In this document: positions 1-10,716 of the stretch, piece after piece
How the letters are laid out: each line of letters opens with the position of its first letter
Numbering within the stretch: position 1 is the first letter of the stretch
Source: a virus
Lineage: Duplodnaviria; Heunggongvirae; Uroviricota; Caudoviricetes
Length of the DNA stretch: 11,441 nucleotides
Virus record (IMG/VR): IMGVR_UViG_3300023487_000022
Strand: one strand, 5' to 3'
The notes under the pieces: model-generated
What the model was told of the DNA's origin: nothing
What the model saw: the letters and a program-made list of their open reading frames with translations, nothing else
Databases searched by the model: none
Program-made: the position numbers and the translations under genes

Positions 1-40
1 TGATGTCACGCTGAAAATGCCGGCCTTTGAATGGGTTCAT
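1..40 (-). CDS. tnpA: IS26 transposase, first 13 codons only (cut by window edge)
   Basis: ATG at 40..38 on the minus strand, reading MNPFKGRHFQRDI, 38 bp inside the terminal IR. Confidence 0.85.
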   Translation of the reverse strand, partial: MNPFKGRHFQRDI

Positions 41-103
41 GTGCAGCTCCATCAGTAAAAGGGGATGATAAGTTTATCACCACCGACTATTTGCAACAGT
101 GCC
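1..103 (-). mobile_element. IS26 (IS6 family) terminal 103 bp; the element continues beyond the window start
   Basis: Reverse complement of 90-103 is GGCACTGTTGCAAA, the IS26 terminal inverted repeat. Reverse complement of 1-40 is ATGAACCCATTCAAAGGCCGGCATTTTCAGCGTGACATCA, the start of the IS26 transposase gene. Recognised from memory of the IS26 sequence, not from a search. Confidence 0.88.
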
Positions 104-152
104 CTTTTCTCTCCTGGCCTTCAGCAAGACCCAGCACCAATGAAGTATTCAT
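104..152 (-). pseudogene. 5' fragment of a gene truncated by the IS26 insertion
   Basis: Minus-strand ATG at 152..150 preceded by GGAG 5 nt upstream. It reads MNTSLVLGLAEGQERK and runs straight into the IS26 IR at 103. It sits directly downstream of a copy of the Y-type upstream module, as the intact ORF at 313-642 does. Confidence 0.4.
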
Positions 153-159
153 CACCACT

Positions 160-226
160 CCGTAAACAAATTGTTTTCTCAATGGCGTAAATAATACCAG
201 TGTAAAAACGGCTACAAAGCATATTG
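160..226 (-). promoter_or_regulatory. Y-type conserved upstream module, copy 1, with AAACAAATTGTTTT dyad at 164-177
   Basis: About 80% identical by eye over about 67 bp to 651-717; both copies lie immediately upstream (minus strand) of a start codon. Confidence 0.55.
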
Positions 227-312
227 CTCAGGCACATGAATTATCTAAAGGTGGTTCTTCCCTGCGGCTACAGAGAAGTTAAGCCAGCAGGCGGTGCTGG
301 CTTTGGTTGGGC

Positions 313-642
313 TTACGCGAATAACTCAAGGAATTCCTGCACGTCCCAATGCTGGACAAGGTGAAGATAGAGCTTAGAAATCACGTCATTCTCGCTATCG
401 CATGTGAAGTAGTACTTCTGGCTGCGGTTGTATGTGTCCACACAAAATTCGCTCATATCCATAAAGTCAGCATCTTCACCCATGTCGCAAATAATCAAAG
501 CAGGAGCATCATCACGAGTCATCAGCTCAAGCACCCAGCGCGAATTGATCAGCGTGGAAGACCAACCTTCTAACTCATAAAACTGGTCAAACTCTTTTTG
601 AGTCATTTTCTTGATTTGGTTGATGTCGATATTTGCAAACAT
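313..642 (-). CDS. Hypothetical small acidic protein (109 aa)
   Basis: ORF-track frame 313..708; start chosen at the internal ATG at 642 because AAGGA lies 7 nt upstream. Product MFANIDINQIKK...; by hand count about 21 D/E versus 8 K/R. No family recognised. Confidence 0.65.
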   Translation of the reverse strand: MFANIDINQIKKMTQKEFDQFYELEGWSSTLINSRWVLELMTRDDAPALIICDMGEDADFMDMSEFCVDTYNRSQKYYFTCDSENDVISKLYLHLVQHWDVQEFLELFA

Positions 643-650
643 AAAGCAAT

Positions 651-717
651 CCTTAAACATGTTGTTTTCTGAATTTCGTAAACAATACCAGTAAGAAAAC
701 GGCCACAAAGTATATCG
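651..717 (-). promoter_or_regulatory. Y-type conserved upstream module, copy 2, with AAACATGTTGTTTT dyad at 655-668
   Basis: Direct repeat of 160-226; abuts the RBS and ATG of the 313-642 CDS. Confidence 0.55.
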
Positions 718-781
718 TTACGGTGCTGCGCTGCCCCGGAGGTTAATAGCGACAAAAGCCACCGTGCTGGTGGTCTCACTC

Positions 782-1000
782 TTAATCTTCGTCGTCCGGG
801 AACTCGCTGTGTACCGCGTCCACCAGCTCCCGCTTTTCATCTTCACTAAGCAGGTGCCAGATATCCTTCCCTTTGGGCGATTCCCCTTCTACCGGGACGA
901 ACGACCACAACTTGCGGTACAACTCCGGCCCCACTGCATCCAGACACTCAGCCAGGGAATCCACACCCCACACCTCAACCGTCACAGGCATCTTAATCAT
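782..1000 (-). CDS. Hypothetical small acidic protein (72 aa)
   Basis: ATG at 1000 with GAGGA 7 nt upstream. Product MIKMPVTVEVWGVDSLAECLD...EFPDDED; about 18 D/E versus 7 K/R by hand count. Confidence 0.7.
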   Translation of the reverse strand: MIKMPVTVEVWGVDSLAECLDAVGPELYRKLWSFVPVEGESPKGKDIWHLLSEDEKRELVDAVHSEFPDDED

Positions 1001-1032
1001 CTCTTCATCCTCACTTCGTTTATATAACGTCT

Positions 1033-1088
1033 AAACATGTTGTTTACTTATTGGTGTTATTGTCGCAATAAGACAAAGGAGAAAAAGG
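1033..1088 (-). promoter_or_regulatory. X-type conserved upstream module, copy 1 (AAACATGTTGTTTA dyad 1033-1046; TTATTG-TCG-CAATAA dyad 1057-1071)
   Basis: About 80% identical by eye to 3801-3856; both lie immediately upstream of minus-strand start codons (1000 and 3788). Confidence 0.55.
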
Positions 1089-1387
1089 ATTTTATGTCGT
1101 GAAAGCCAGGCTGGGCAGTGAATATCCGGGAACGACACGGGAACCAGTATTTACGATATTCTGCTCTACGCGCGCCGCAGGGCTGGTGGGCAGAATTTTC
1201 TTCTCCCCGAAAACCTACTGAAATCGCTTGAGACCCGAGGATGGTCTGGCAGAATGGAGTTCAGCAGCTGCACGAGAGGGAACGACACTCCCTCGCGATT
1301 TTCAGGCGAGCGAAGAGCAAGGCGCACTCCCGAAGATTTCCCGCACTGCTCCCGCAGTCGTCCCTCGCTCTGTACCGGGATGTACCC

Positions 1388-1513
1388 GTTTCCCGACCGG
1401 CAGCCAGCCTTTTCCCGGTTCGTATAGCGGGATTCCCACCGTTTCCCTGAAAAACCTCCAGCCTTTTCCCTGCGGCGACGTTCCCGTTCCTGAAAAGGGA
1501 CATGGCTTTTCCC
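1388..1513. repeat. Array of about 7 degenerate direct repeats with TTTCCC core, roughly 21 bp period
   Basis: TTCCC cores at about 1390, 1412, 1433, 1443, 1466, 1481 and 1509. Three copies share AGCCTTTTCCC-G (1407-1418, 1460-1471, 1504-1516). Confidence 0.5.
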
Positions 1514-2588
1514 TGGATGGCTCGAAGGCTGACCGAAGGGGTGGATAGGGACGTTACGGGGGATGAAAACTATGGCTTGAATTTATACGAAGAAAGTGGC
1601 GATACCCCTCCTTCCCTTCCCACTTATACCTCCCACGAATTTTCTCTCTTATGTGGGCATAAACCTTCTCTCTGATAACGCTCAATACGGCGACTATTCC
1701 TGTGGGTGAAATGGGTGGTTTGTTCTTTCTACCGGCATATGTGGTTTCGTTCTTCTTGAGGTGGTTCTTCTCTGTGTTTTCGTCAGGGTTGTTCTCGTTG
1801 TTTTGGTGATTGTTCTTCTCTGTGTATGGAGTAATGGCAGGTGGGCGATTCCTTTCGTTATTGTATTTGAGTTGTTTGTCTTGAGAGCGTGAAAGGCTTT
1901 TGTGGTTATTTGTGTATTGAGTAATGGCGTTTCCCCGCGAATGTTCTGTTTCGTGTCTTTGGGGATTGAGGGAGTCCTTGCGGTAACAGGCTTCGTTAGA
2001 GTTTCAGTGGTTCTGGTGTTTATTCGCTGTTTGGGGAATGGCGTGTAGTGGGTATCGCATGTATGAATGTTTCGAGTTGCCTGTGAAAGTTAGGTTGGTT
2101 GTCCGGTAGCCTGGGAAGAAGAGGTGGGTCTTTTCAGTAGCCTGCCATAAAGAGGTTGGTTGTTTTTGGGAATGTGGGTAATGGCGTCTCTGGGTTTCCT
2201 GTGGGTGTGGTTAGCTTGTTTTCTTGTGTCTGAAAACAACTTGTTTAGATGTCCAATATAACGCAACGGGAGCGCTTCTGAGCGTGTCTGTTTTTGGGTG
2301 GTATCACGAGTCGTTTTTGACGTTTTGGTCGCAGGGAGATGGATTCTGGTACGCTGGATTTGGGTATAAGAGATGGCGTGCGAAAACATCAACTTTTTAG
2401 ACCAAATCAGGGGAAAGCGTTGACTTTACGTTGATGTGTTATTTATTTGTTTTCTTATGGGTGTAATTGGCTTAAATGCCTTGTCACGCCTGGGATTGAG
2501 TGGGGTAGGGTGGTGGGGAAAGTGGCGATCAACGGACTCTTATAGAAATCCTCAATTTGTGACCGCCAATATCAACGAGCTGCAGCCG

Positions 2589-3158
2589 TTAGTTGTTCAG
2601 ATAGGCATCCGGAACGCGCACATAAAAGTTTCTTTCGCCGGTCAGTTCCAGAGTAACGTTTATGTCGTTGCCGTTATCCAGCGTAGCCGTCGCTTTATAG
2701 AACTTGTCCGTCACCTTGTCCTGAATTGTCACCTTCATACATTTCGGCGCTGTGGTTCCGTTATTCTCTTTCAGAATGGTCGTTACGAGAGGACAAGCCG
2801 CTTCTTCAAGAGCAACCTCTTCCTGGTGTGGGATACCGATGAAGATGTTACCAGCAAGCAACGCGACGATTACGATAAAAGGAAGTCGACTGCCTTTTGT
2901 AACGGTGGCACGTTTCCAGAGATAGACCGGAAGGAGAAATACTCCCCACAGGATGGCCGGTGGTTCATACCCTGCATCAGACAATGCCATTCTGTCAGCC
3001 ACCAGAAAGCCGAGTCCAGCGACTCCACCTATCACTATTGCATAATTCAAATACTCATCTGGCGGTGCTCCAAAGAAGAGAGGCAGTAAAGCTAGAAGCC
3101 ACGCATAAGCATTATTCAGAGGTTTTGTTTGTTGGTTCTGGGTTTCCATCACATCCAT
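2589..3158 (-). CDS. Hypothetical membrane protein (189 aa), hydrophobic N-terminal half and soluble C-terminal domain
   Basis: ORF track; hydrophobic stretches (WLLALLPLFF, AIVIGGVAGLGFLV, ILWGVFLLPVYLW, FIVIVALLAGNIFIGI). Start uncertain between ATG 3158 and ATG 3149; RBS weak. The overlapping plus-strand ORF 2436-3089 has a non-protein-like composition. Confidence 0.65.
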   Translation of the reverse strand: MDVMETQNQQTKPLNNAYAWLLALLPLFFGAPPDEYLNYAIVIGGVAGLGFLVADRMALSDAGYEPPAILWGVFLLPVYLWKRATVTKGSRLPFIVIVALLAGNIFIGIPHQEEVALEEAACPLVTTILKENNGTTAPKCMKVTIQDKVTDKFYKATATLDNGNDINVTLELTGERNFYVRVPDAYLNN

Positions 3159-3234
3159 TCCATCAGATTAAAAAGCGGTACTATGTTACCAATTTTCTTC
3201 GCTTATATGACATGATTACTCAACGAGTGGGCGA

Positions 3235-3555
3235 TCACCATTCCCATGCAGGTAGCCCATCCACCAGCTCGGCGTCGCAATCGAAGTGAACCACGTCAAA
3301 GCCGTCATCCAGTATGGTCTGTATGTTGGAGATCGCCTCTTGGGAAATGCCGTACTCACGCAGTTCTTCCTTCCAGTCATTCCCTCGCATTCCAGCACGA
3401 ACAATCCAGCCGTACTGTGTACCGTGTACCCAATTCAACCCGCGATCAGTAAGTGGGTCGAAGCAGGCAATGGGTAGCCGTTCTGAATCCGCTGCCGTTA
3501 CGTGGGCGGTGCTGATCACCGCCGTCTTATACGATTCGGTGATTTTCAGCATCAT
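3235..3555 (-). CDS. Hypothetical acidic protein (106 aa), translationally coupled to the upstream gene
   Basis: ATG at 3555 overlaps the TGA of the 3552-3788 CDS (ATGA overlap); AAGGAG upstream. About 18 D/E versus 8 K/R by hand count. Confidence 0.72.
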   Translation of the reverse strand: MMLKITESYKTAVISTAHVTAADSERLPIACFDPLTDRGLNWVHGTQYGWIVRAGMRGNDWKEELREYGISQEAISNIQTILDDGFDVVHFDCDAELVDGLPAWEW

Positions 3556-3788
3556 GCCTTCTCCTTTGGAAACAGAATGTTGGCCGTGTCAGAAATGACA
3601 TCCCAATTCACGCCGACGCTGGTGTCATGGCACTCTTTGATTTTTCGCAAAACCTGAACGCACTGTTCGTCAGTCAGGTCTGGTCGCACTTCACCTACAT
3701 CTTCCTTGTGCCACATCACCATCAGCAGCGGCTCGTCTTCTGGGTAGTTCTCCAGCTTTTCGATGATGTCTTTTGCGGTTCCGAACAT
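3552..3788 (-). CDS. Hypothetical small acidic protein (78 aa)
   Basis: ATG at 3788 with AAGGAG 6 nt upstream; the track start at 3806 is a TTG that contains this SD. Product MFGTAKDIIEKLENYPEDEPLL... Confidence 0.72.
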   Translation of the reverse strand: MFGTAKDIIEKLENYPEDEPLLMVMWHKEDVGEVRPDLTDEQCVQVLRKIKECHDTSVGVNWDVISDTANILFPKEKA

Positions 3789-3800
3789 GATCAACTCCTT

Positions 3801-3856
3801 AAACAATTTATTTTCTTATTTGTGTTATTATCTCAAATAACAAAAGGTAGAAAACA
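3801..3856 (-). promoter_or_regulatory. X-type conserved upstream module, copy 2 (GTTATT-N6-AATAAC dyad 3824-3841; AAACA/TGTTT-like dyads at 3801-3814 and 3851-3865)
   Basis: Homologous to 1033-1088; lies between the 3874-4140 and 3552-3788 genes. Confidence 0.55.
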
Positions 3857-3873
3857 AAATGTTTAAGGGATGA

Positions 3874-4140
3874 CTAGGTGAGTTTGAAGTCGTCTATGTC
3901 ATCAACAAACTCCATATACCTGGCTTCGACACTCGACAATCTGATCAGATACGCAAGCCCGTAACTTAGTGAAGTGGGTTGCTCCAGCACAAATTCGAAC
4001 CCATCCTCATGCGTTTTACCAAGCCAGAACCCCCCACCGTATTCTTTTTCACGTTGGAAGAAAACGAACTGTCCGGGTATTAGGTGCTTGAGTGCTTCGC
4101 CCCTATAGACGATCACATATTTAGAATTCTTGCTGCCCAT
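3874..4140 (-). CDS. Hypothetical protein (88 aa)
   Basis: ORF-track frame 3874..4197; start chosen at ATG 4140 because GAGG lies 6 nt upstream, while the ATG at 4197 has no SD. Confidence 0.6.
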   Translation of the reverse strand: MGSKNSKYVIVYRGEALKHLIPGQFVFFQREKEYGGGFWLGKTHEDGFEFVLEQPTSLSYGLAYLIRLSSVEARYMEFVDDIDDFKLT

Positions 4141-4228
4141 TGCTCGCCTCGCAATACTGTACATATAAACAGTATTATTTATTACGGTACTGGTCAACTT
4201 TACGGGTTAATTGAATAACAAGATGGTG

Positions 4229-4243
4229 AAAACAATTTGTTTT
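4229..4243. promoter_or_regulatory. Perfect 15 bp palindrome AAAACAATTTGTTTT in a divergent promoter region; candidate operator
   Basis: Seven-base arms around a central T, between the minus-strand start at 4140 and the plus-strand start at 4328; the strongest copy of the recurring AAACA-N-TGTTT dyad. Confidence 0.5.
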
Positions 4244-4327
4244 GGCACTTGAGATTTTGCAAATCGCACCTACATGGAAAACGGCAATTTTTGAAACCTG
4301 ATTTGACCCATGTGAAAGGAGGAAACG

Positions 4328-4531
4328 ATGAAGACCTATGATCGCAACCGTAACGCTATCACTACCGGCAGCCGAGTGATGGTGGCAACGAATGGTGCAA
4401 CGGGAGTCATCAAGGAAATCTGCGGAGAAGGCAAATCAGAAGAACAATTACGCCGCTCTGACTGCGTGTCTATCGAAGGTGTGGAAGGTCTATTCTGCCC
4501 AATGGATTTGGTTCGCCTGGGGTTCCATTAA
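4328..4531 (+). CDS. Hypothetical small protein (67 aa); candidate regulator
   Basis: ATG at 4328 with AGGAGG SD 5 nt upstream. It is the only plus-strand gene in the island and is transcribed divergently from the palindrome at 4229-4243. Confidence 0.72.
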   Translation: MKTYDRNRNAITTGSRVMVATNGATGVIKEICGEGKSEEQLRRSDCVSIEGVEGLFCPMDLVRLGFH

Positions 4532-4558
4532 TTTCACCATCTATAAAACAAATTGTTT

Positions 4559-4579
4559 AAGGCCACAACTAGTGGCCTT
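4559..4579. terminator. GC-rich inverted repeat AAGGCCAC-AACTA-GTGGCCTT between convergent genes; possible bidirectional terminator
   Basis: 8 bp stem, 5 nt loop. The T-rich tract on the minus-strand side is offset by about 6 nt, so terminator function is uncertain. Confidence 0.4.
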
Positions 4580-4586
4580 ATCTGGC

Positions 4587-5285
4587 TTACGGAACAGCGG
4601 TAATCAGATCGCAAATGCCTGTTTTAGTTAAATCACTATTCAGCTTCTGAAAATTGGCATTCAGCATTGCGGTATGTATTCGATTCTCAAGTTCAAAGAA
4701 GAGACCGATCTTGCCCTCTTTGGCTGCCACCTTCTTCCAAATATTCACCTGGTCATCTGCGATACGACTTGCGCAGGTGAACAAGAACGAACTCCCTCTG
4801 GGAAGGGATGTCGTGCTGTAGTATTCACCGTCAACTTCAATATACTTAGCTCGGAATGACTCCAGAGTTAGCTTTTTACCGCTCTCAGCCTGCTTTGTGT
4901 CTGCCTTGCTTGTCTTTTCCTGAACTTCAGGCTGTTTCTGCACAGGCTTTGGTGTCTCATTGACCACCGCAGTGCTGGCCGAACCATCCAAACTCTTGAG
5001 GCCATTAATTTGGATTAGATAAGCCAACTCCAGAGCCTTATCACCAGTGAGTTTTCCACGCATACTTACCCATTGACGCTGAACCGTCTTTAAGGCGTCT
5101 GCGTCCCCCGGGTTTGCTTTGAGTGCGTTGGAATAGGTAGAGCTAAGTTGTTCGTCTAATTTTGACAGGCGTTCGTTATCGCAGATTTTGTGTTCGATTT
5201 CTGCCGAAGCCTTTTGGCAGTCAAAGCTGGCTGCAAATACAGCCGGCGATGCCACCAACAATGATGCCAGTAGGATATTTTTCAT
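4587..5285 (-). CDS. Secreted protein with DUF1311 (LprI-like) N-terminal domain (232 aa)
   Basis: ATG at 5285 with GGAG upstream. Signal peptide MKNILLASLLVASPAVFA with an AXA-type cleavage site, followed by the Cys/Leu pattern FDCQKASAEIEHKICDNERLSKLDEQLSSTYSNALKA...QRQWVSMRG, which matches DUF1311 from memory. C-terminal domain unassigned. Confidence 0.78.
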   Translation of the reverse strand: MKNILLASLLVASPAVFAASFDCQKASAEIEHKICDNERLSKLDEQLSSTYSNALKANPGDADALKTVQRQWVSMRGKLTGDKALELAYLIQINGLKSLDGSASTAVVNETPKPVQKQPEVQEKTSKADTKQAESGKKLTLESFRAKYIEVDGEYYSTTSLPRGSSFLFTCASRIADDQVNIWKKVAAKEGKIGLFFELENRIHTAMLNANFQKLNSDLTKTGICDLITAVP

Positions 5286-5323: not shown

Positions 5324-5539
5324 TTAACCAATTGCTTCTCTCATCTGATTGTGAAGCTCTTTCAGCCCATCACGTACCGCGTTCATGATACGTTCCAGGG
5401 ATTGGTATCTGGGGTTTGGCACTGTTGGCCAACCGGCATACCACGGATCGTCACCAAACAGACTCAGCAGTTCGTTACCGACACCGAAACAGCAGCAACT
5501 TTCTTTTACGTCATCAGCGTTTTCTGCCTCGTCCCACAT
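5324..5539 (-). CDS. Hypothetical protein (71 aa), possibly the C-terminal remnant of a longer disrupted gene
   Basis: ORF track; in the same frame as 5774-6505 but separated from it by stops. The frame is open upstream of the ATG as far as 5626. Confidence 0.4.
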   Translation of the reverse strand: MWDEAENADDVKESCCCFGVGNELLSLFGDDPWYAGWPTVPNPRYQSLERIMNAVRDGLKELHNQMREAIG

Positions 5540-5773
5540 ATTGCGGGCCTGCTCTGCGTCGATTTCTCTCTCTCCCTGCGCAACTTTATGATTTCGGATT
5601 TGACGAAAAGCAGGTTTGCGTCGTTGTCATCGTCGACCGTACTGAAGTGGCACACTGAATTTGGCCGTCTGTAATGGGCAGATCCGGCAACTGTTTAAAA
5701 ACATCCATCTGCTCATGGATACGCAGAAACCACCTTGCCAGCTCCATCTGCTCACCGCGGGTGAGGAGATTAT

Positions 5774-6505
5774 TCAGCGGGGACTTAACAAAAGCGGAGA
5801 CTCGCTCGACAAGCCGGCCAGTGAACCAACATCCCCCCAATTCTGGTGTGTCAGCGCCCCGATACTTACCACTCCAGGCAGCACTTCTTTGTGGTTGTGG
5901 TAGTGCCCGGACAACAATAAACGGAAGCCGATATCTTTCAGTTCCTGTGCGTCGATGCCGACATCGGGCATGGTGGGGATCGCTTTGTTGATTGAGGTAT
6001 GTACAACAACATCATGGTTGTCACCATCCAGCCCGGAACGCAGCGTTTTGAGATCGCTGATAAGTTCTGCGTAGTTATTACGCCAGCTAATCAGATGGAC
6101 GGTTACGTCGCCCATTTTGATGGAATGAGGACGTTTGCCGCAGACGATTTCCACACCGATTGAGCGCAGAGAGGCTGCTGCATTGGCGCTGTATACGGAA
6201 TCGTTGGTTTCGAGGTCGTGGTTGCCAGCCAGCATTACCACCTTGAGACCCAACTCTTTGATGATCCACTCGTAAGTTTCGGTCACGAAATGCAGAACGG
6301 AAGGTGATATAGCACCGCGAACATGGAAGGTATCACCAGCTACCAGCATGTTCTTACAGCCAGCAGCTTTCATCGCTTTGGCCGCCTCCTTCGTAGCGTC
6401 CAGTTGGATCTCCAGCCGAGAGTTAAGCCCGTCAGCGTTTGTTGTCGCAAAAGCATCCCAACGATGATAATGGGGATCTGATATTACCCCGTATGGCAAT
6501 GTCAT
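5774..6505 (-). CDS. Calcineurin-like metallophosphoesterase (243 aa)
   Basis: ATG at 6505 with AAGGA upstream. Ordered motifs ISDPHYH, GDTFHVRG, GNHD and GHYHNH match the metallophosphatase signature (D-x-H, GD-x-x-D/H-R-G, GNH[DE], GH-x-H). Confidence 0.75.
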   Translation of the reverse strand: MTLPYGVISDPHYHRWDAFATTNADGLNSRLEIQLDATKEAAKAMKAAGCKNMLVAGDTFHVRGAISPSVLHFVTETYEWIIKELGLKVVMLAGNHDLETNDSVYSANAAASLRSIGVEIVCGKRPHSIKMGDVTVHLISWRNNYAELISDLKTLRSGLDGDNHDVVVHTSINKAIPTMPDVGIDAQELKDIGFRLLLSGHYHNHKEVLPGVVSIGALTHQNWGDVGSLAGLSSESPLLLSPR

Positions 6506-6848
6506 GTGTCTTTTCCTTTGTGGTTATTTTGATACAAATTCTAAGCGTGCATAAGAGGCGTACAACCCAGACAACACGGCACACAAAAGAATATAAAGGC
6601 ACATGATAATAACAAAAAAATAAGTAAGTAAATACCTATCAGATAGGGCAGCAACGATTTCTAAACGTCACAAGCAATTTTATGAGAGCAGTCATTTACT
6701 GATGACAAGAAATGAAAAAGGAGAACGGACGGTGAAGTTGTGAGATGACATTTACGGCGTTTGCGTGCGTCGTCTTCAAACGCATCCGTCGGCCACAGTT
6801 TCTGCTCTTGAATAAAATTCACTCATGCATTAATCCCTAAAGCTCTCA

Positions 6849-7546: not shown

Positions 7547-7645
7547 AATTCTTGTTCAAATAATTTTGTCCGGGGCAACGATAACGGATAAGGCGCACCG
7601 GAGTTTGCAAATGCCTGTTTACTTATTCACTTTATTCACAGGCCC

Positions 7646-7703
7646 GATCCAATATTTAGATCCCCAGAGAGATCCTACAGAAGATCAAAAGAGATCCCCG
7701 ATC
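7646..7703. promoter_or_regulatory. GATC (Dam site) cluster, 6 sites in 58 bp; origin-like element
   Basis: GATC at 7646, 7659, 7671, 7683, 7693 and 7700, next to an AT-rich segment and just upstream of iteron cluster 1; this resembles the arrangement at P1-type origins. Confidence 0.5.
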
Positions 7704-7744
7704 GTCTCCAGCGCTTGCGGTTACTGGCTTGAGAAGGGGTTACT

Positions 7745-7846
7745 ATCCACTATAGGGAGCAAAATAACCACTGTAGAGAGCATAATAACCGCTATGAAGA
7801 GCAAAACAACCTCTCTGGAGAGTAGTCGGTATCCACTGTAGTGAGT
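7745..7846 (+). repeat. Iteron cluster 1: 5 direct repeats, about 21 bp spacing, core A(A/T)CCACT(A/G)TAG(A/T)GAG
   Basis: Copies at 7745-7760, 7766-7781, 7787-7802, 7808-7823 (degenerate) and 7831-7846. Confidence 0.8.
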
Positions 7847-8127
7847 AGGAGACAATGTTTTAACTGGATAACTCCGAGCCTGTTTTTCTGCGGCAGATGG
7901 CTGATATTCTTGGAAATATTGTAAATTTTGCGTTGCGGCGTGTTTATTTCGATCACACATTATCCCCAGAAGGGGAGTGATGCCTGATTTTGTAATTATC
8001 TGATTTTTATACACAGGCCCGATCCAGTAATTCAGATCCCTGTTAGAACCAAAGAGAACCACAAAGACCCAAAGAGATCCCCGGCCCTTGCAAACCGTTG
8101 TGCCACATGGCTTTAGAGGTTATCGAT

Positions 8128-8249
8128 ATCCACTATAGTGAGAAGAACAACCACTATAGAGAGTAAATCAACCACTATGGAGAGTAGAAAAACCGCTGTA
8201 GGCGGTAGGATAACCACTGTGATGGGTGCTACTATCCACTGTAATCAGT
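8128..8249 (+). repeat. Iteron cluster 2: 6 direct repeats at 21-22 bp spacing, immediately upstream of repA
   Basis: Copies at 8128-8143, 8149-8164, 8170-8185, 8191-8206, 8212-8227 and 8234-8249. Confidence 0.82.
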
Positions 8250-8288
8250 AAAGGCACCCAAGCCGTCGAATAAAAAGAGACATTTGGA

Positions 8289-9344
8289 ATGAGCGTAAAC
8301 GACAATAAAAACATTGCGATAAGCGAAGCATTTTCCGAAACAGACAAAAAGACCGGCGAAGTTGTTACGTTAGTTCCTAACACCAACAACACAGTTCAGC
8401 CTGTTGCTCTGATGCGTCTTGGTCTCTTCGTTCCGACGCTGAAATCGACATCCAGGGGTAGAAAGGGGCAAATGGTCTCTATGGACGCCTCCGCTGAACT
8501 CAAACAGCTGTCTCTGGCCAAAGCCGAAGGGTACGAGGATATAAGGATTGCTGGTCTTCGTCTTGATATGGATAACGATTTCAAAACATGGGTGGGCATC
8601 ATCCACGCGTTCGCCAAGCACAAGGTTGTTGGTGACACCGTCACGTTGCCGTTCGTCGAGTTCGTCAGACTTTGTGGCATACCAACAGCCAGATCGTCCG
8701 CGAAGTTACGTAAGCGCCTGGACAGCTCTCTAAGTCGTATCGCCACAAACACCATCTCATTCCGCAGCAAAGGCTCTGAAGAGTATTACGTTACGCACCT
8801 TGTGCAGACGGCAAAGTACAGTACCAAGAATGACACGGTCGAACTGAAGGCCGATCCTAAGATTTTCGAACTTTACCAGTTCGACAAAAAGGTGCTTTTG
8901 CAACTTCGGGCCATCAACGAACTCTCCAGAAAGGAATCCGCGCAGGCGCTCTACACCTTCATTGAAAGTTTGCCACCAGACCCGGCGCCAATCTCATTGG
9001 CTCGCTTACGCGCCAGACTTAACTTAACCAGCCGCACCATTACCCAGAATGCGACAGTCAGGAAGGCGATGGAGCAGCTGCGAGAGATCGGCTATCTCGA
9101 TTACACTGAAGTGAAACGCGGCAGCTCGGTCTACTTCGTCATCCACTATAGACGGCCGAAGTTACGTTCGGCACTGCCGCCATCTATGGCTACGCCTGAA
9201 GAGCCAGAAGATATCTTGCCAGGTGATGATCCGGAGGACATTATCGATGTTGCCCCTGAAGAAAAAGACGGGGAAATGGTCATGTTGAGCAAGGAAGAAC
9301 TGGCGATTCTCGAAGAGCTGCGCAAGGCAAAGGCTCGCAAATAG
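8289..9344 (+). CDS. repA: Iteron-binding replication initiator RepA, RepFIB/P1 RepA family (351 aa)
   Basis: Product contains [57 protein letters not shown] and [10 protein letters not shown], which I recognise as conserved in P1 RepA and RepFIB RepA. Flanked on both sides by iterons. Confidence 0.9.
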
Positions 9345-9347
9345 CCC

Positions 9348-9947
9348 AACCACTGTAGAGAGTAAAAAGGCTCACTATCTACTGTAGTGAGCCTTTTTGT
9401 TTATCGGAAATGCAATATCCACTGTAGTGAGTAAAAGAAACCGAAGAATAACCACTGTAGGCAGTGCGCACAAATCGCGAAGTAAATGTTAGTGGTTGCA
9501 AACATAGATAAAACAAGGGCTGAGAGGTTAGCGGTCACTGGGTATCTCTGTTAAGTCTACTCTCTACAGCGGTTATCGTCGCTCTCCTCATTGTTGACTA
9601 TCCACTGTGAAGAGCAGAATTGGCTGACTTGACCTCTATCCACTGTAGTGAGTGGATATCCGTTTAAAACAGCGAAGATTTACTCTCCATAGTGGATATC
9701 CGCTGGAGGGGGCATTCCATCACTCTCTATAGTGGTTGTTTGTAGTCAGTGAACGCCTGTTTACTCACTACAGTGTATAGCGACCCCGATAATCACCAAT
9801 TTACTCACTACAGTGGATAGTTGATATCGTGGCAGAGGGTTTGCTCACTACAGTGGTTGGGGTGCATACCTGAAGGGTGTTCTACTCGCTACAGTGGTTA
9901 TGAGCCGGATTCACACGCGGTGAGCTGGCTACTCACCGCAGTGGATA
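9348..9947. repeat. Downstream iteron array, about 14 copies in both orientations (incA-like)
   Basis: Direct copies at 9348-9363, 9378-9393, 9417-9432, 9450-9465, 9598-9615 and 9638-9653; inverted copies at 9559-9576, 9682-9701, 9721-9738, 9763-9780, 9803-9820, 9843-9860, 9884-9901 and 9930-9947. Confidence 0.8.
9369..9402 (+). terminator. repA rho-independent terminator: GGCTCACTA-TCTACTG-TAGTGAGCC then TTTTTGTTT
   Basis: 9 bp stem beginning 25 nt after the repA stop, followed by a T-run; the stem is built from iteron-like sequence. Confidence 0.6.
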
Positions 9948-9953
9948 GTGTTA

Positions 9954-10677: not shown

Positions 10678-10716
10678 GATAGGTAAATGCTAACTTATAT
10701 ATTTTTGCTGTAAATA

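What the first reader, a model, noticed from the sequence alone, without database searches (positions are those of the whole stretch)
1033..1088. X-type upstream module duplicated in front of two different genes
1033-1088 and 3801-3856 are about 80% identical by eye over about 55 bp. Each contains two dyads: AAACA/TGTTT plus TTATTG-N3-CAATAA in one copy and GTTATT-N6-AATAAC in the other. They precede the unrelated genes starting at 1000 and 3788. Conservation of non-coding sequence in front of non-homologous genes suggests portable promoter-operator cassettes. If this is a conjugative leading region they could instead be single-strand promoter hairpins (Frpo-like), but this is speculative because I found no oriT or known leading-region gene.
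Basis: partly seen in the sequence, partly recalled or inferred. Interest (0 to 1): 0.55.

Follow-up and report, generated by a model that had tools for sequence, protein, structure and literature searches.

The report
Repeated promoter-operator module of a phage-plasmid
The two look-alike stretches are copies of a short promoter-plus-operator unit that SSU5-type phage-plasmids place in front of about twenty different genes per genome, which points to one still unidentified regulator switching all of them together.

Summary
1031-1091 and 3797-3868 align at 43/55 positions (0 of 2000 shuffles reach this), lie upstream of unrelated minus-strand genes, and no coding sequence is duplicated.

The window is not a conjugative leading region. 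It is a remnant of an SSU5/pHCM2-type phage-plasmid next to its repA, cut by IS26 at base 103.

The two copies, and the 'Y-type' pair at 160-211 and 651-702, belong to one module family. On the gene strand it reads: CCTTTT, an extended -10 (TGnGATAAT), 13 nt, the palindrome AAACAA-N-TTGTTT, then the ribosome-binding site and ATG. Some copies carry a second, inverted palindrome exactly 51 bp upstream.

The palindrome occurs 7 times exactly in the window, 14 times in phage SSU5 and 11 times in phage Cyrano, against about 0.1 expected. The same X-type promoter precedes at least six different genes in other phage-plasmids, with homology ending at the palindrome.

Best reading: sigma-70 extended -10 promoters repressed by a dimeric phage-encoded DNA-binding protein. 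That protein is unidentified. The most attractive candidate, the small ParA-partner protein, is only an inference.

The Frpo-like single-strand promoter idea is rejected. No paper I could read describes this regulon, so I file it as a new member of a known kind, of moderate interest.

The parts
1031..1091 (-). X-type module copy 1: a promoter-operator unit upstream of gene 782-1000.
   Evidence: Profile hit at 1079-1031, E 8.6e-10. Homologous to SSU5 92123-92184 and Cyrano 95761-95818.
1059..1067 (-). Extended -10 of copy 1 (TGCGACAAT on the minus strand). The predicted transcription start is near 1051-1053.
   Evidence: Read from the sequence. An extended -10 lies 11-15 nt upstream of about 40% of palindromes, against 2% background. 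The start site is inferred, not mapped.
1033..1045 (.). Proximal palindromic operator of copy 1 (AAACATGTTGTTT), centred at about +13.
   Evidence: Exact match. Homology with Cyrano and SSU5 breaks here.
782..1000 (-). Downstream gene of copy 1: 72 aa, phrog_6757, function unknown.
759..773 (-). Terminator-like hairpin plus T-run that closes the copy 1 cassette.
3797..3868 (-). X-type module copy 2: the double-operator version, an inverted repeat with 33-nt arms, upstream of the DUF1380 gene 3552-3788.
   Evidence: inverted repeat I1 (82% complementary). Profile hit at 3847-3797, E 9.7e-9. Orthologue footprint.
3827..3835 (-). Extended -10 of copy 2 (TGAGATAAT on the minus strand).
   Evidence: TTGAGATAATAA is invariant in 9 distinct orthologous regions.
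3801..3813 (.). Proximal operator of copy 2. It is degenerate here (AAACAATTTATTT, one mismatch) but exact in SSU5.
3852..3864 (.). Distal, inverted operator of copy 2 (AAACAAAATGTTT), 51 bp from the proximal one and centred at about -38.
   Evidence: The 51-bp spacing occurs in 29 of 41 distinct neighbouring pairs.
3552..3788 (-). Downstream gene of copy 2: 78 aa, annotated DUF1380 in related records, phrog_10258.
651..702 (-). Y-type module of the same family: TGGTATTGT at 682-690 and palindrome at 655-667. It lies upstream of gene 313-642.
   Evidence: Profile hit, E 2.8e-6.
160..211 (-). Y-type module: TGGTATTAT at 191-199 and palindrome at 164-176. It lies upstream of a gene (ATG at 152-150) cut by IS26 at 103/104.
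   Evidence: Profile hit, E 1.4e-8. IS26 end read from the sequence.
2234..2246 (.). Solitary palindrome at the upstream end of the 1.4-kb non-coding region.
   Evidence: The SSU5 counterpart is at 90740.
4230..4242 (.). Palindrome in the divergent region between the LexA-box gene (3874-4140, minus strand) and ydfZ (4328-4531, plus strand).
4546..4558 (.). Palindrome next to the GGCCAC/GTGGCC hairpin, between the convergent genes ydfZ and LprI.
   Evidence: Partial profile hit at 4529-4562. SSU5 counterpart at 87625.

Best explanation
Both stretches are copies of the standard promoter-operator module of SSU5/pHCM2-type phage-plasmids.

On the gene (minus) strand each module has four elements:
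- a weak -35 region (CCTTTT);
- an extended -10 element, TGnGATAAT (TGCGACAAT at 1059-1067; TGAGATAAT at 3827-3835), which host sigma-70 RNA polymerase can use without a good -35;
- 13 nt further on, the palindrome AAACAA-N-TTGTTT, which would cover about +7 to +19 of the transcript start region;
- directly after it, the ribosome-binding site and ATG.

A dimeric (or dimer-of-dimers) phage-encoded DNA-binding protein is proposed to bind the palindrome and block RNA polymerase. In copy 2 a second, inverted palindrome 51 bp upstream (about -38) would sandwich the promoter and tighten repression.

The same operator precedes about 20 transcription units per genome. These include the late operon, parA, dnaB, nrdB, methyltransferase genes and many small accessory genes. 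They would therefore form one regulon that is kept quiet in the lysogen.

The conserved module also marks the places where gene cassettes have been exchanged between phage-plasmids.

Shown: the family, its anatomy, its excess over chance, its positions and the mosaic junctions. Inferred: promoter use, the transcription start, repression, and the regulator's identity.
For: Context: the window matches SSU5-type phage-plasmids and phage SSU5 itself, at 85% over 76% of window 600-4600.

Excess over chance: the window has 7 exact and 2 one-mismatch palindromes. Shuffles give 0.78 for the two classes together, and 0 of 200 reach 9. SSU5 has 14 exact sites where shuffles give about 0.14. Cyrano has 11.

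Position: most exact sites end 13-41 nt before a start codon.

Promoter element: an extended -10 lies 11-15 nt upstream of 6/14, 4/11 and 3/7 exact sites on the gene strand, against 2% of random positions.

Symmetry: positions 6 and 8 of the palindrome were not required by the search, yet are 91% A and 89% T. The centre base is equiprobable. This is the pattern expected for a dimeric DNA binder.

Footprint: in 9 distinct orthologues of copy 2 the distal operator, TTGAGATAATAA and the proximal operator are invariant, while the 8 nt around the predicted start vary.

Spacing: the two operators are 51 bp apart in 29 of 41 distinct pairs.

RNA structure: the predicted 5' UTRs are unstructured (z +1.2 to -1.0).

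Expression: in a Cyrano lysogen most module-driven first genes are at background. CYRAN_1 is 7.1, 101 is 7.5, 105 is 12.8, 106 is 12.2 and 108 is 5.7 (111 is 25.5); about half of all genes score 10 or less (PMC9928086 S1 table).

Portability: the same X promoter precedes at least 6 different first genes. Homology between the window and Cyrano or SSU5 breaks at palindromes 655-667 and 1033-1045.
Against: No transcription start, promoter activity or protein binding has been measured.

The -35 is poor, so promoter strength rests entirely on the extended -10.

Some sites do not fit a simple repressed-promoter picture. There is no recognisable -10 at window 2234, 4230 or 4546, nor at the tandem pair before terS.

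The parA operon carries the site but is moderately expressed in the lysogen (50-89 reads). The regulator may therefore be a dampener rather than the lysogeny master switch.

The flanks of the palindrome are orientation-specific (AGA...AAGG). A purely symmetric DNA operator does not need that.

Low expression in lysogens would also fit promoters that need an activator.

The strict 51-bp spacing may simply reflect common descent of the modules.
Confidence: 0.6

Rival explanations
1. RNA-level control. The conserved sequence acts in the mRNA leader. A phage translational repressor, for instance the FljA-family protein encoded by all SSU5-type phages, binds AAGAAAACAAnUUGUUUAAGGAG next to the Shine-Dalgarno sequence and blocks translation, as FljA does on fliC mRNA.
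For: If the extended -10 is used, the palindrome lies within the leader and abuts the ribosome-binding site. Its flanks are orientation-specific. SSU5_121 and CYRAN_114 match Pfam Flag1_repress at E about 1e-80, and the gene is present in all 12 SSU5-type phage records. FljA-like repressors act post-transcriptionally (PMC2652032). There are faint Hfq/LSm-like hits in the C-terminus.
Against: The symmetric part is 6+1+6, which leaves a 1-nt loop that cannot form a hairpin. Predicted leaders are unstructured. The inverted distal copy 51 bp upstream would not be part of the transcript. A module profile does not find the Salmonella or Citrobacter fliC leader (best hits E >= 13 and elsewhere).
Confidence: 0.12
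2. Recombination linker. The modules are conserved mainly because they are the short homologies at which gene cassettes are swapped, like the PeSL cassettes of T4-type phages. Regulation would be secondary.
For: Relative to Cyrano, the cassette 671-1031 (gene 782-1000 plus the Y promoter) is an insertion or deletion bounded by palindromes. SSU5_111 is missing from the window, with a junction about 8 nt after the palindrome. The same X promoter is fused to at least 6 different genes, and in L110 the junction lies inside the palindrome.
Against: Across 75 loci, homology ends are 3 times enriched near palindromes compared with uniform positions (3.3% against 1.0% within 10 nt). That is no more than generic gene-start positions (5.7%), so there is no specific signal. 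Recombination does not explain the symmetric half-sites, the free centre base, the fixed distance to a -10, or sites in core operons such as parA, dnaB, nrdB and terS.
Confidence: 0.15
3. Positive control. The palindrome is the binding site of a phage activator, or part of a phage-specific promoter, and is needed to switch these weak promoters on during lytic growth.
For: Module genes are silent in lysogens. The -35 regions are poor. The terS sites lack a recognisable -10.
Against: The site lies downstream of the -10, at about +7 to +19, which is a typical repressor position and an atypical activator position. Most modules have a good extended -10, which usually works without an activator.
Confidence: 0.1
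4. Frpo-like single-strand promoter. The module folds in single-stranded DNA entering a recipient cell and is transcribed from the hairpin.
For: Copy 2 folds as single-stranded DNA on either strand (-15.7 and -15.9 kcal/mol, z -5.2 and -4.8). Its arms show some two-sided changes among orthologues (6 pairs, 0 of 500 shuffles).
Against: The element is a tailed-phage plasmid that is mostly typed non-mobilizable (895 of 932 matching plasmids), not a leading region. Copy 1 and both Y copies do not fold (z -1.8 to +0.8), so the hairpin is not a property of the family. In the copy 2 fold the -10 element lies partly in the apical loop and partly in the adjacent stem, and no paired -35 element is evident. 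There is no Rfam match.
Confidence: 0.02

Closest known systems
Phage P1 C1 repressor regulon (operators dispersed over a phage-plasmid genome)
   Same: One short operator sequence is repeated at many promoters scattered over a roughly 100-kb phage-plasmid, so that one protein can hold many separate transcription units (own knowledge of P1; the distribution here is).
   Different: The P1 operator is an asymmetric 17-bp sequence (ATTGCTCTAATAAATTT), unrelated to AAACAA-N-TTGTTT. The SSU5-type regulator is unknown. No C1 homologue was looked for or seen.
PeSL mobile regulatory cassettes of T4-type phages (Arbiol, Comeau and Krisch 2010; own knowledge)
   Same: These are conserved intergenic units with a sigma-70 promoter, placed in front of small unrelated genes of unknown function in a plastic genome region, and they coincide with gene-shuffling junctions.
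   Different: The PeSL hallmark is a stem-loop. Here only the double-operator variant folds. The conserved core here is a protein-type palindrome. The genome-wide junction test was not specific.
Global kor regulon of IncP plasmids (KorA/KorB), the omega protein of pSM19035, and the dispersed SopB sites of phage-plasmid N15 (own knowledge)
   Same: A 12-13-bp palindrome or short repeats occur at many promoters, including the partition operon's own promoter, and are bound by a partition-related or small dimeric protein that acts as a global repressor. Here the palindrome sits in the parA promoter. The ParA partner protein is at least 95% identical in 735 of 797 plasmids, with an invariant SRTMSxEDE...RSDVIRAAI core.
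Morons of lambdoid phages (autonomous promoter-gene-terminator units; own knowledge)
   Same: Copy 1 has a promoter (1059-1067), a gene (782-1000) and a terminator-like hairpin (759-773).
   Different: Classical morons have individual promoters and are often expressed in the lysogen. These units share one operator, and most are silent in a Cyrano lysogen.

Membership tests
Sigma-70 extended -10 promoter | A TGn motif immediately upstream of a -10 hexamer with A at position 2 and T at position 6. | tested here: met
   TGCGACAAT at 1059-1067 and TGAGATAAT at 3827-3835. About 20-fold enriched at a fixed distance from the palindrome. Invariant in orthologues.
Sigma-70 extended -10 promoter | A transcription start 6-8 nt downstream, with activity on double-stranded DNA. 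| not testable with these tools
   No 5'-end data were available. The simple TTGACA/TATAAT scan did not list these sites because the -35 is poor.
Operator of a dimeric repressor | Two-fold symmetric half-sites with an unconstrained centre. | tested here: met
   AAACAA-N-TTGTTT. Positions 6 and 8 are 91% and 89% conserved although not required by the search, and the centre base is 22-30% each.
Operator of a dimeric repressor | Overlap with the RNA polymerase footprint of a promoter. | tested here: met
   The proximal site lies 13 nt after the -10 (about +7 to +19) and the distal site is centred at about -38. This holds only if the -10 assignment is right.
Operator of a dimeric repressor | A cognate protein that binds and represses. 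| not testable with these tools
   The candidates are only circumstantial.
Frpo-type single-strand promoter of conjugative leading regions | Location in a leading region next to oriT of a conjugative plasmid. | tested here: not met
   The segment is SSU5-type phage-plasmid DNA. 895 of 932 matching plasmids are typed non-mobilizable.
Frpo-type single-strand promoter of conjugative leading regions | A long imperfect hairpin in single-stranded DNA that rebuilds -35 and -10 elements in its stem. | tested here: not met
   Copy 1 has z -1.8 and -1.3, and the Y copies +0.8 and -0.8. Only copy 2 folds; there the -10 element lies partly in the apical loop and partly in the adjacent stem, and no paired -35 is evident.
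PeSL-like mobile regulatory cassette | A conserved promoter unit in front of unrelated small genes in a plastic region. | tested here: met
PeSL-like mobile regulatory cassette | A stem-loop as part of every cassette. | tested here: not met
PeSL-like mobile regulatory cassette | Cassette boundaries act as recombination junctions. | tested here: inconclusive
   There are clear cases at 655-667 and 1033-1045 and in L110. Genome-wide enrichment is no greater than for generic gene starts.
Known RNA families (Rfam 15) | A match to a covariance model at the gathering score. | tested here: not met
   Only three sub-threshold chance hits, E 0.5-0.7.
FljA target (fliC mRNA leader) | Sequence resemblance of the module leader to the fliC 5' UTR. 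| tested here: not met
   By eye the two share CCAATAA...CAAGTTGT...AAGGA. The module profile does not hit the fliC leader.

The most novel reading that the evidence does not exclude
The palindrome is bound by the small, almost invariant protein encoded directly after the ParA-like ATPase (SSU5_034, cluster P0001). The roughly 20 dispersed sites would then serve both as partition-complex sites and as operators. Plasmid segregation and global silencing of phage genes would be carried out by one protein in the commonest phage-plasmid family of clinical Enterobacteriaceae. This would be a far more extensive version of the dispersed SopB sites of N15 or the omega regulon of pSM19035.
Probability: 0.2. 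Interest if true: 0.65.

Novelty: new member of a known kind. Interest (0 to 1): 0.4.

Why it matters
SSU5/pHCM2-type phage-plasmids are very common in Salmonella, E. coli, Klebsiella and Enterobacter. The query region matched 932 plasmid records, and these elements can carry or merge with resistance plasmids.

How they hold lysogeny and time their genes appears undescribed. None of the papers I could search or read mentions these operators.

A defined 13-bp operator with a fixed promoter architecture gives three things:
- a direct handle for finding the regulator by pull-down or ChIP;
- a predicted regulon;
- an explanation for how small accessory genes are plugged in as ready-made, co-regulated units.

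In hybrid resistance plasmids such as the one this window resembles, orphaned modules may drive unregulated expression of their cargo.

Tried and rejected
1. Frpo-like hairpins. Single-strand DNA folding of all four modules showed structure only in copy 2. Rejected as a family property.

2. RNA leader structure. The predicted 5' UTRs are unstructured and there is no Rfam family.

3. FljA link. I fetched fliC upstream regions from 10 enterobacterial genomes. A module-leader profile did not find the fliC leader. The FljA papers by Yamamoto & Kutsukake and Bonifield & Hughes are not held.

4. Regulator by domain search. The other minus-strand SSU5 genes gave no DNA-binding domain in Pfam. SSU5_116 and CYRAN_45 have HTH hits but, going by the two annotations, have no counterpart in the other phage.

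5. Covariation between regulator and operator. A K. pneumoniae phage-plasmid whose ParA partner is only 55% identical still has the same palindrome at parA and dnaB. The predicted DNA-reading segment is invariant, so this test cannot discriminate.

7. Junction statistics. Homology ends across 75 loci are not more enriched at palindromes than at generic gene starts.

8. A third X-like copy at 2440-2477 is not significant (E 0.65).

9. A 2026 preprint on an SSU5-type phage-plasmid and heteroresistance could not be opened. A term search shows it contains none of the words repressor, FljA, LexA or inverted repeat.

Full report
**What is there.**
- The repeat finder pairs 1032-1086 with 3800-3854 at 73% ungapped identity.
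- A local alignment with one gap gives 43 of 55 identical positions. Its score is 29, against 8.9 +/- 1.5 for 2000 dinucleotide-preserving shuffles, none of which reaches it.
- Both lie upstream of minus-strand genes, 782-1000 and 3552-3788. Their products show no similarity, and the alignment stops before either coding sequence.

**Where the DNA comes from.**
The window is not a conjugative leading region.
- It matches IncFIB-typed E. coli plasmids at 99.8-100%.
- More distantly, region 600-4600 matches 932 plasmids, 895 of them typed non-mobilizable. It also matches SSU5-type phages, with Salmonella phage SSU5 itself at 85%.
- The closest complete records are decayed phage-plasmids fused to IS26-rich resistance regions.
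- Bases 1-103 are an IS26 end, and phage-plasmid DNA starts at 104.
- The genes behind the modules are small phage proteins of unknown function, each matching a PHROG family and almost none matching Pfam.

**The module family.**
- Window: 7 exact and 2 one-mismatch sites. Shuffles give 0.78 for the two classes together, and 0 of 200 reach 9.
- SSU5: 14 exact sites, with about 0.14 given by shuffles.
- Cyrano, a distantly related E. coli phage-plasmid: 11 exact sites.

Most exact sites end 13-41 nt before a start codon on the gene strand. In SSU5 and Cyrano the genes served include:
- the terminase small subunit (start of the late operon);
- parA, dnaB and nrdB;
- a cobT-like gene and a methyltransferase;
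- a dozen small accessory genes.

Aligned on the palindrome, the copies share this architecture:

[optional inverted palindrome] - TCTaCCTTTT - about 8 nt - TGnGATAAT - 13 nt (often AACACCAAnAAGA) - AAACAA-N-TTGTTT - A - ribosome-binding site - ATG

A profile built only from IMG/VR contigs, which is independent of the window, finds four full-length modules on the window's minus strand:

| Position | E-value |
|---|---|
| 1079-1031 | 8.6e-10 |
| 3847-3797 | 9.7e-9 |
| 211-160 | 1.4e-8 |
| 702-651 | 2.8e-6 |

They differ mainly in the -10 version (TGCGATAAT against TGGTATTAT).

**Why a promoter plus a DNA operator is the best reading.**
- TGnGATAAT is the consensus of an extended -10 promoter. 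It lies 11-15 nt upstream of 6/14 (SSU5), 4/11 (Cyrano) and 3/7 (window) exact palindromes on the gene strand, against about 2% of random positions.
- In nine distinct orthologues of copy 2, the distal palindrome, TTGAGATAATAA and the proximal palindrome are invariant. The eight bases in between, where transcription should start, vary freely.
- The palindrome is really 6+1+6. Positions 6 and 8 were not required by the search yet are 91% A and 89% T, and the centre base is equiprobable. That is the signature of a two-fold symmetric protein on double-stranded DNA. It leaves a 1-nt loop that no hairpin can form.
- The predicted leaders have no stable RNA structure.
- With the -10 as assigned, the proximal site covers about +7 to +19 and the distal site is centred near -38. 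Together they bracket the polymerase footprint.
- The two sites are exactly 51 bp apart in 29 of 41 distinct neighbouring pairs, and 25 bp apart in 6, the spacing seen at the terS tandem sites.
- In published RNA-seq of a Cyrano lysogen, most first genes behind modules sit at background. CYRAN_1 is 7.1, 101 is 7.5, 105 is 12.8, 106 is 12.2 and 108 is 5.7, while 111 is 25.5. About half of all genes score 10 or less (PMC9928086 supplementary table).
- The parA operon is the clearest exception, at 50-89 reads.

None of this is a measurement of a transcription start or of binding. Promoter use and repression are inferences.

**Differences between the two copies.**
- Copy 1 has one operator (1033-1045, exact), and a terminator-like hairpin follows its gene (759-773). 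It is a complete promoter-gene-terminator unit.
- Copy 2 is the double-operator version. The whole of 3797-3868 is an inverted repeat with 33-nt arms.
- The proximal site of copy 2 carries a mismatch in this window (AAACAATTTATTT) but is exact in SSU5.
- Only copy 2 folds as single-stranded DNA (-15.7 kcal/mol, z -5.2).
- Only copy 2 folds as read-through RNA (-28.6 kcal/mol, z -6.3), where the hairpin would bury the Shine-Dalgarno sequence.
- Among orthologues six pairs of this hairpin change on both sides (0 of 500 shuffles). The symmetry itself seems to be maintained. I cannot tell whether this serves protein binding at two inverted sites or insulates the gene from read-through transcripts.

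**Portability.**
- The window and Cyrano are collinear over 104-670 and 1032-2575. The breakpoints fall at palindromes 655-667 and 1033-1045.
- The piece in between (gene 782-1000, its terminator and the Y promoter) is one cassette that is present here and absent there.
- SSU5 has an extra gene (SSU5_111) inserted about 8 nt after the same palindrome.
- Across IMG/VR contigs the same X promoter (TTATTGCGATAATAAC, with a homologous upstream flank) precedes at least six different first genes. Similarity ends right after TGTTTA, and in one contig (L110) the junction lies inside the palindrome.
- A cruder genome-wide test was not specific. Homology ends are 3 times enriched near palindromes compared with uniform positions, but no more than generic gene starts.
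- I therefore treat the linker role as shown by examples but not as a demonstrated general rule.

**Who binds.**
This is unknown. The candidates are as follows.
- The FljA-family protein is encoded by all 12 SSU5-type phage records. Its relatives act on fliC mRNA. However, the module profile does not recognise the fliC leader, and the closest decayed plasmid lacks the gene.
- SSU5_116 and CYRAN_45 have HTH hits but, going by the two annotations, have no counterpart in the other phage.
- The most attractive candidate is the small protein encoded directly after the ParA-like ATPase.
  - Its operon carries the palindrome in its own promoter in SSU5, Cyrano and a divergent Klebsiella element.
  - It is 98% identical between SSU5 and Cyrano and at least 95% identical in 735 of 797 plasmids.
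  - The segment SRTMSxEDE...RSDVIRAAI is invariant even in 50%-identical variants.
  - The operon is expressed in the lysogen.
  - Its sequence looks like a ribbon-helix-helix protein. The only support is a sub-threshold aCcr1 hit, and the structure model and fold search were uninformative.
  - I give this link about 20%.

**Comparison with known systems.**
- In function the closest parallels are the dispersed C1 operators of phage-plasmid P1 and the global kor or omega regulons of plasmids.
- In genome dynamics the closest parallels are the PeSL cassettes of T4-type phages and the morons of lambdoid phages.
- The sequences are unrelated to any of these. The PeSL stem-loop is not a family feature here, and there is no Rfam match.
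- None of the papers I could search or read describes these operators. One 2026 preprint could not be opened.

**Verdict.**
- The 'portable promoter-operator cassette' reading is supported. The Frpo alternative is rejected.
- The finding opens onto a previously undescribed regulon of about 20 sites in a very common phage-plasmid family. This is a new member of a known kind, of moderate interest, with an unidentified regulator as the main open question.

Noticed in passing
window 4155-4174: There is a perfect LexA box (TACTGTACATATAAACAGTA; 0.04 given by shuffles). It overlaps the -10 of a TTGACC-N17-TACTGT promoter on the minus strand, upstream of the 88-aa gene 3874-4140 (phrog_2100, the SSU5_103 homologue). 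The box is conserved in SSU5. This could be an SOS-controlled antirepressor, which would fit the ciprofloxacin induction of Cyrano.
   Followed up: partly
window 6620-6639 and 10679-10698; SSU5 and Cyrano genome-wide: A second dispersed motif, the 20-bp inverted repeat ATAAGTA-N6-TACTTAT, gives 38 overlapping matches in SSU5 and 34 in Cyrano at up to 2 mismatches (perhaps 25 distinct places each). By position many appear to lie between genes, including in the late structural region, and some directly abut a start codon. It is a separate regulon or signal of unknown function (I9, 86, 87).
   Followed up: partly
window 1100-2560: This is a roughly 1.4-kb stretch without convincing genes. It is conserved in SSU5 (84%) and Cyrano (72%). 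The plus strand of 1700-2500 is very G+T-rich (GC skew up to +0.48, AT skew down to -0.59). It contains a 24-nt tandem repeat at 1763-1825 and TTTTCCC-type repeats at 1390-1515, and a palindrome (2234-2246) sits towards its upstream end. It might be a non-coding RNA, a Rho-loading region or an origin.
   Followed up: partly
window 1-103 and 104-152: An IS26 terminal repeat ends at 103 and cuts the gene driven by the Y module at 160-211 after about 16 codons. The closest plasmids are decayed phage-plasmids fused to multi-resistance regions. In p1585m1_B, IS26 has removed window 104-1192 and the segment that holds the FljA-like gene in SSU5.
   Followed up: partly
window 4328-4531 with 4230-4242 and 4546-4558: ydfZ is the only plus-strand gene in the module region. 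It has a palindrome on each side, and the downstream one is fused to a GGCCAC/GTGGCC hairpin shared with the convergent LprI gene.
   Followed up: no
window 5324-6505 (minus strand): The SbcD-like metallophosphoesterase ORF is 243 aa, against 361 aa in SSU5. It is followed by short ORFs in other frames, so it is probably disrupted. The order of this segment relative to the LprI-side genes also differs from SSU5.
   Followed up: no
window 7740-8255 and 9345-9950: Arrays of repA iterons (core CCACTGTAGAGAG, 21-bp spacing) flank repA (8289-9344). A duplicated upstream block lies at 7620-7850 and 7990-8250. This is an ordinary iteron replicon.
   Followed up: no
SSU5 L003:46897-47343 and Cyrano L007:780-1301 (outside the window): Every SSU5-type phage record encodes a close homologue of the flagellar phase-1 repressor FljA (Pfam E about 1e-80), with a faint Sm/Hfq-like C-terminus. 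Its target in the phage or the host is unknown.
   Followed up: partly
locus L110 (IMG/VR contig): An X-type promoter is joined to a different gene with the junction inside the palindrome: AAGAAAACAA|AGGAG, with the right half-site missing.
   Followed up: no
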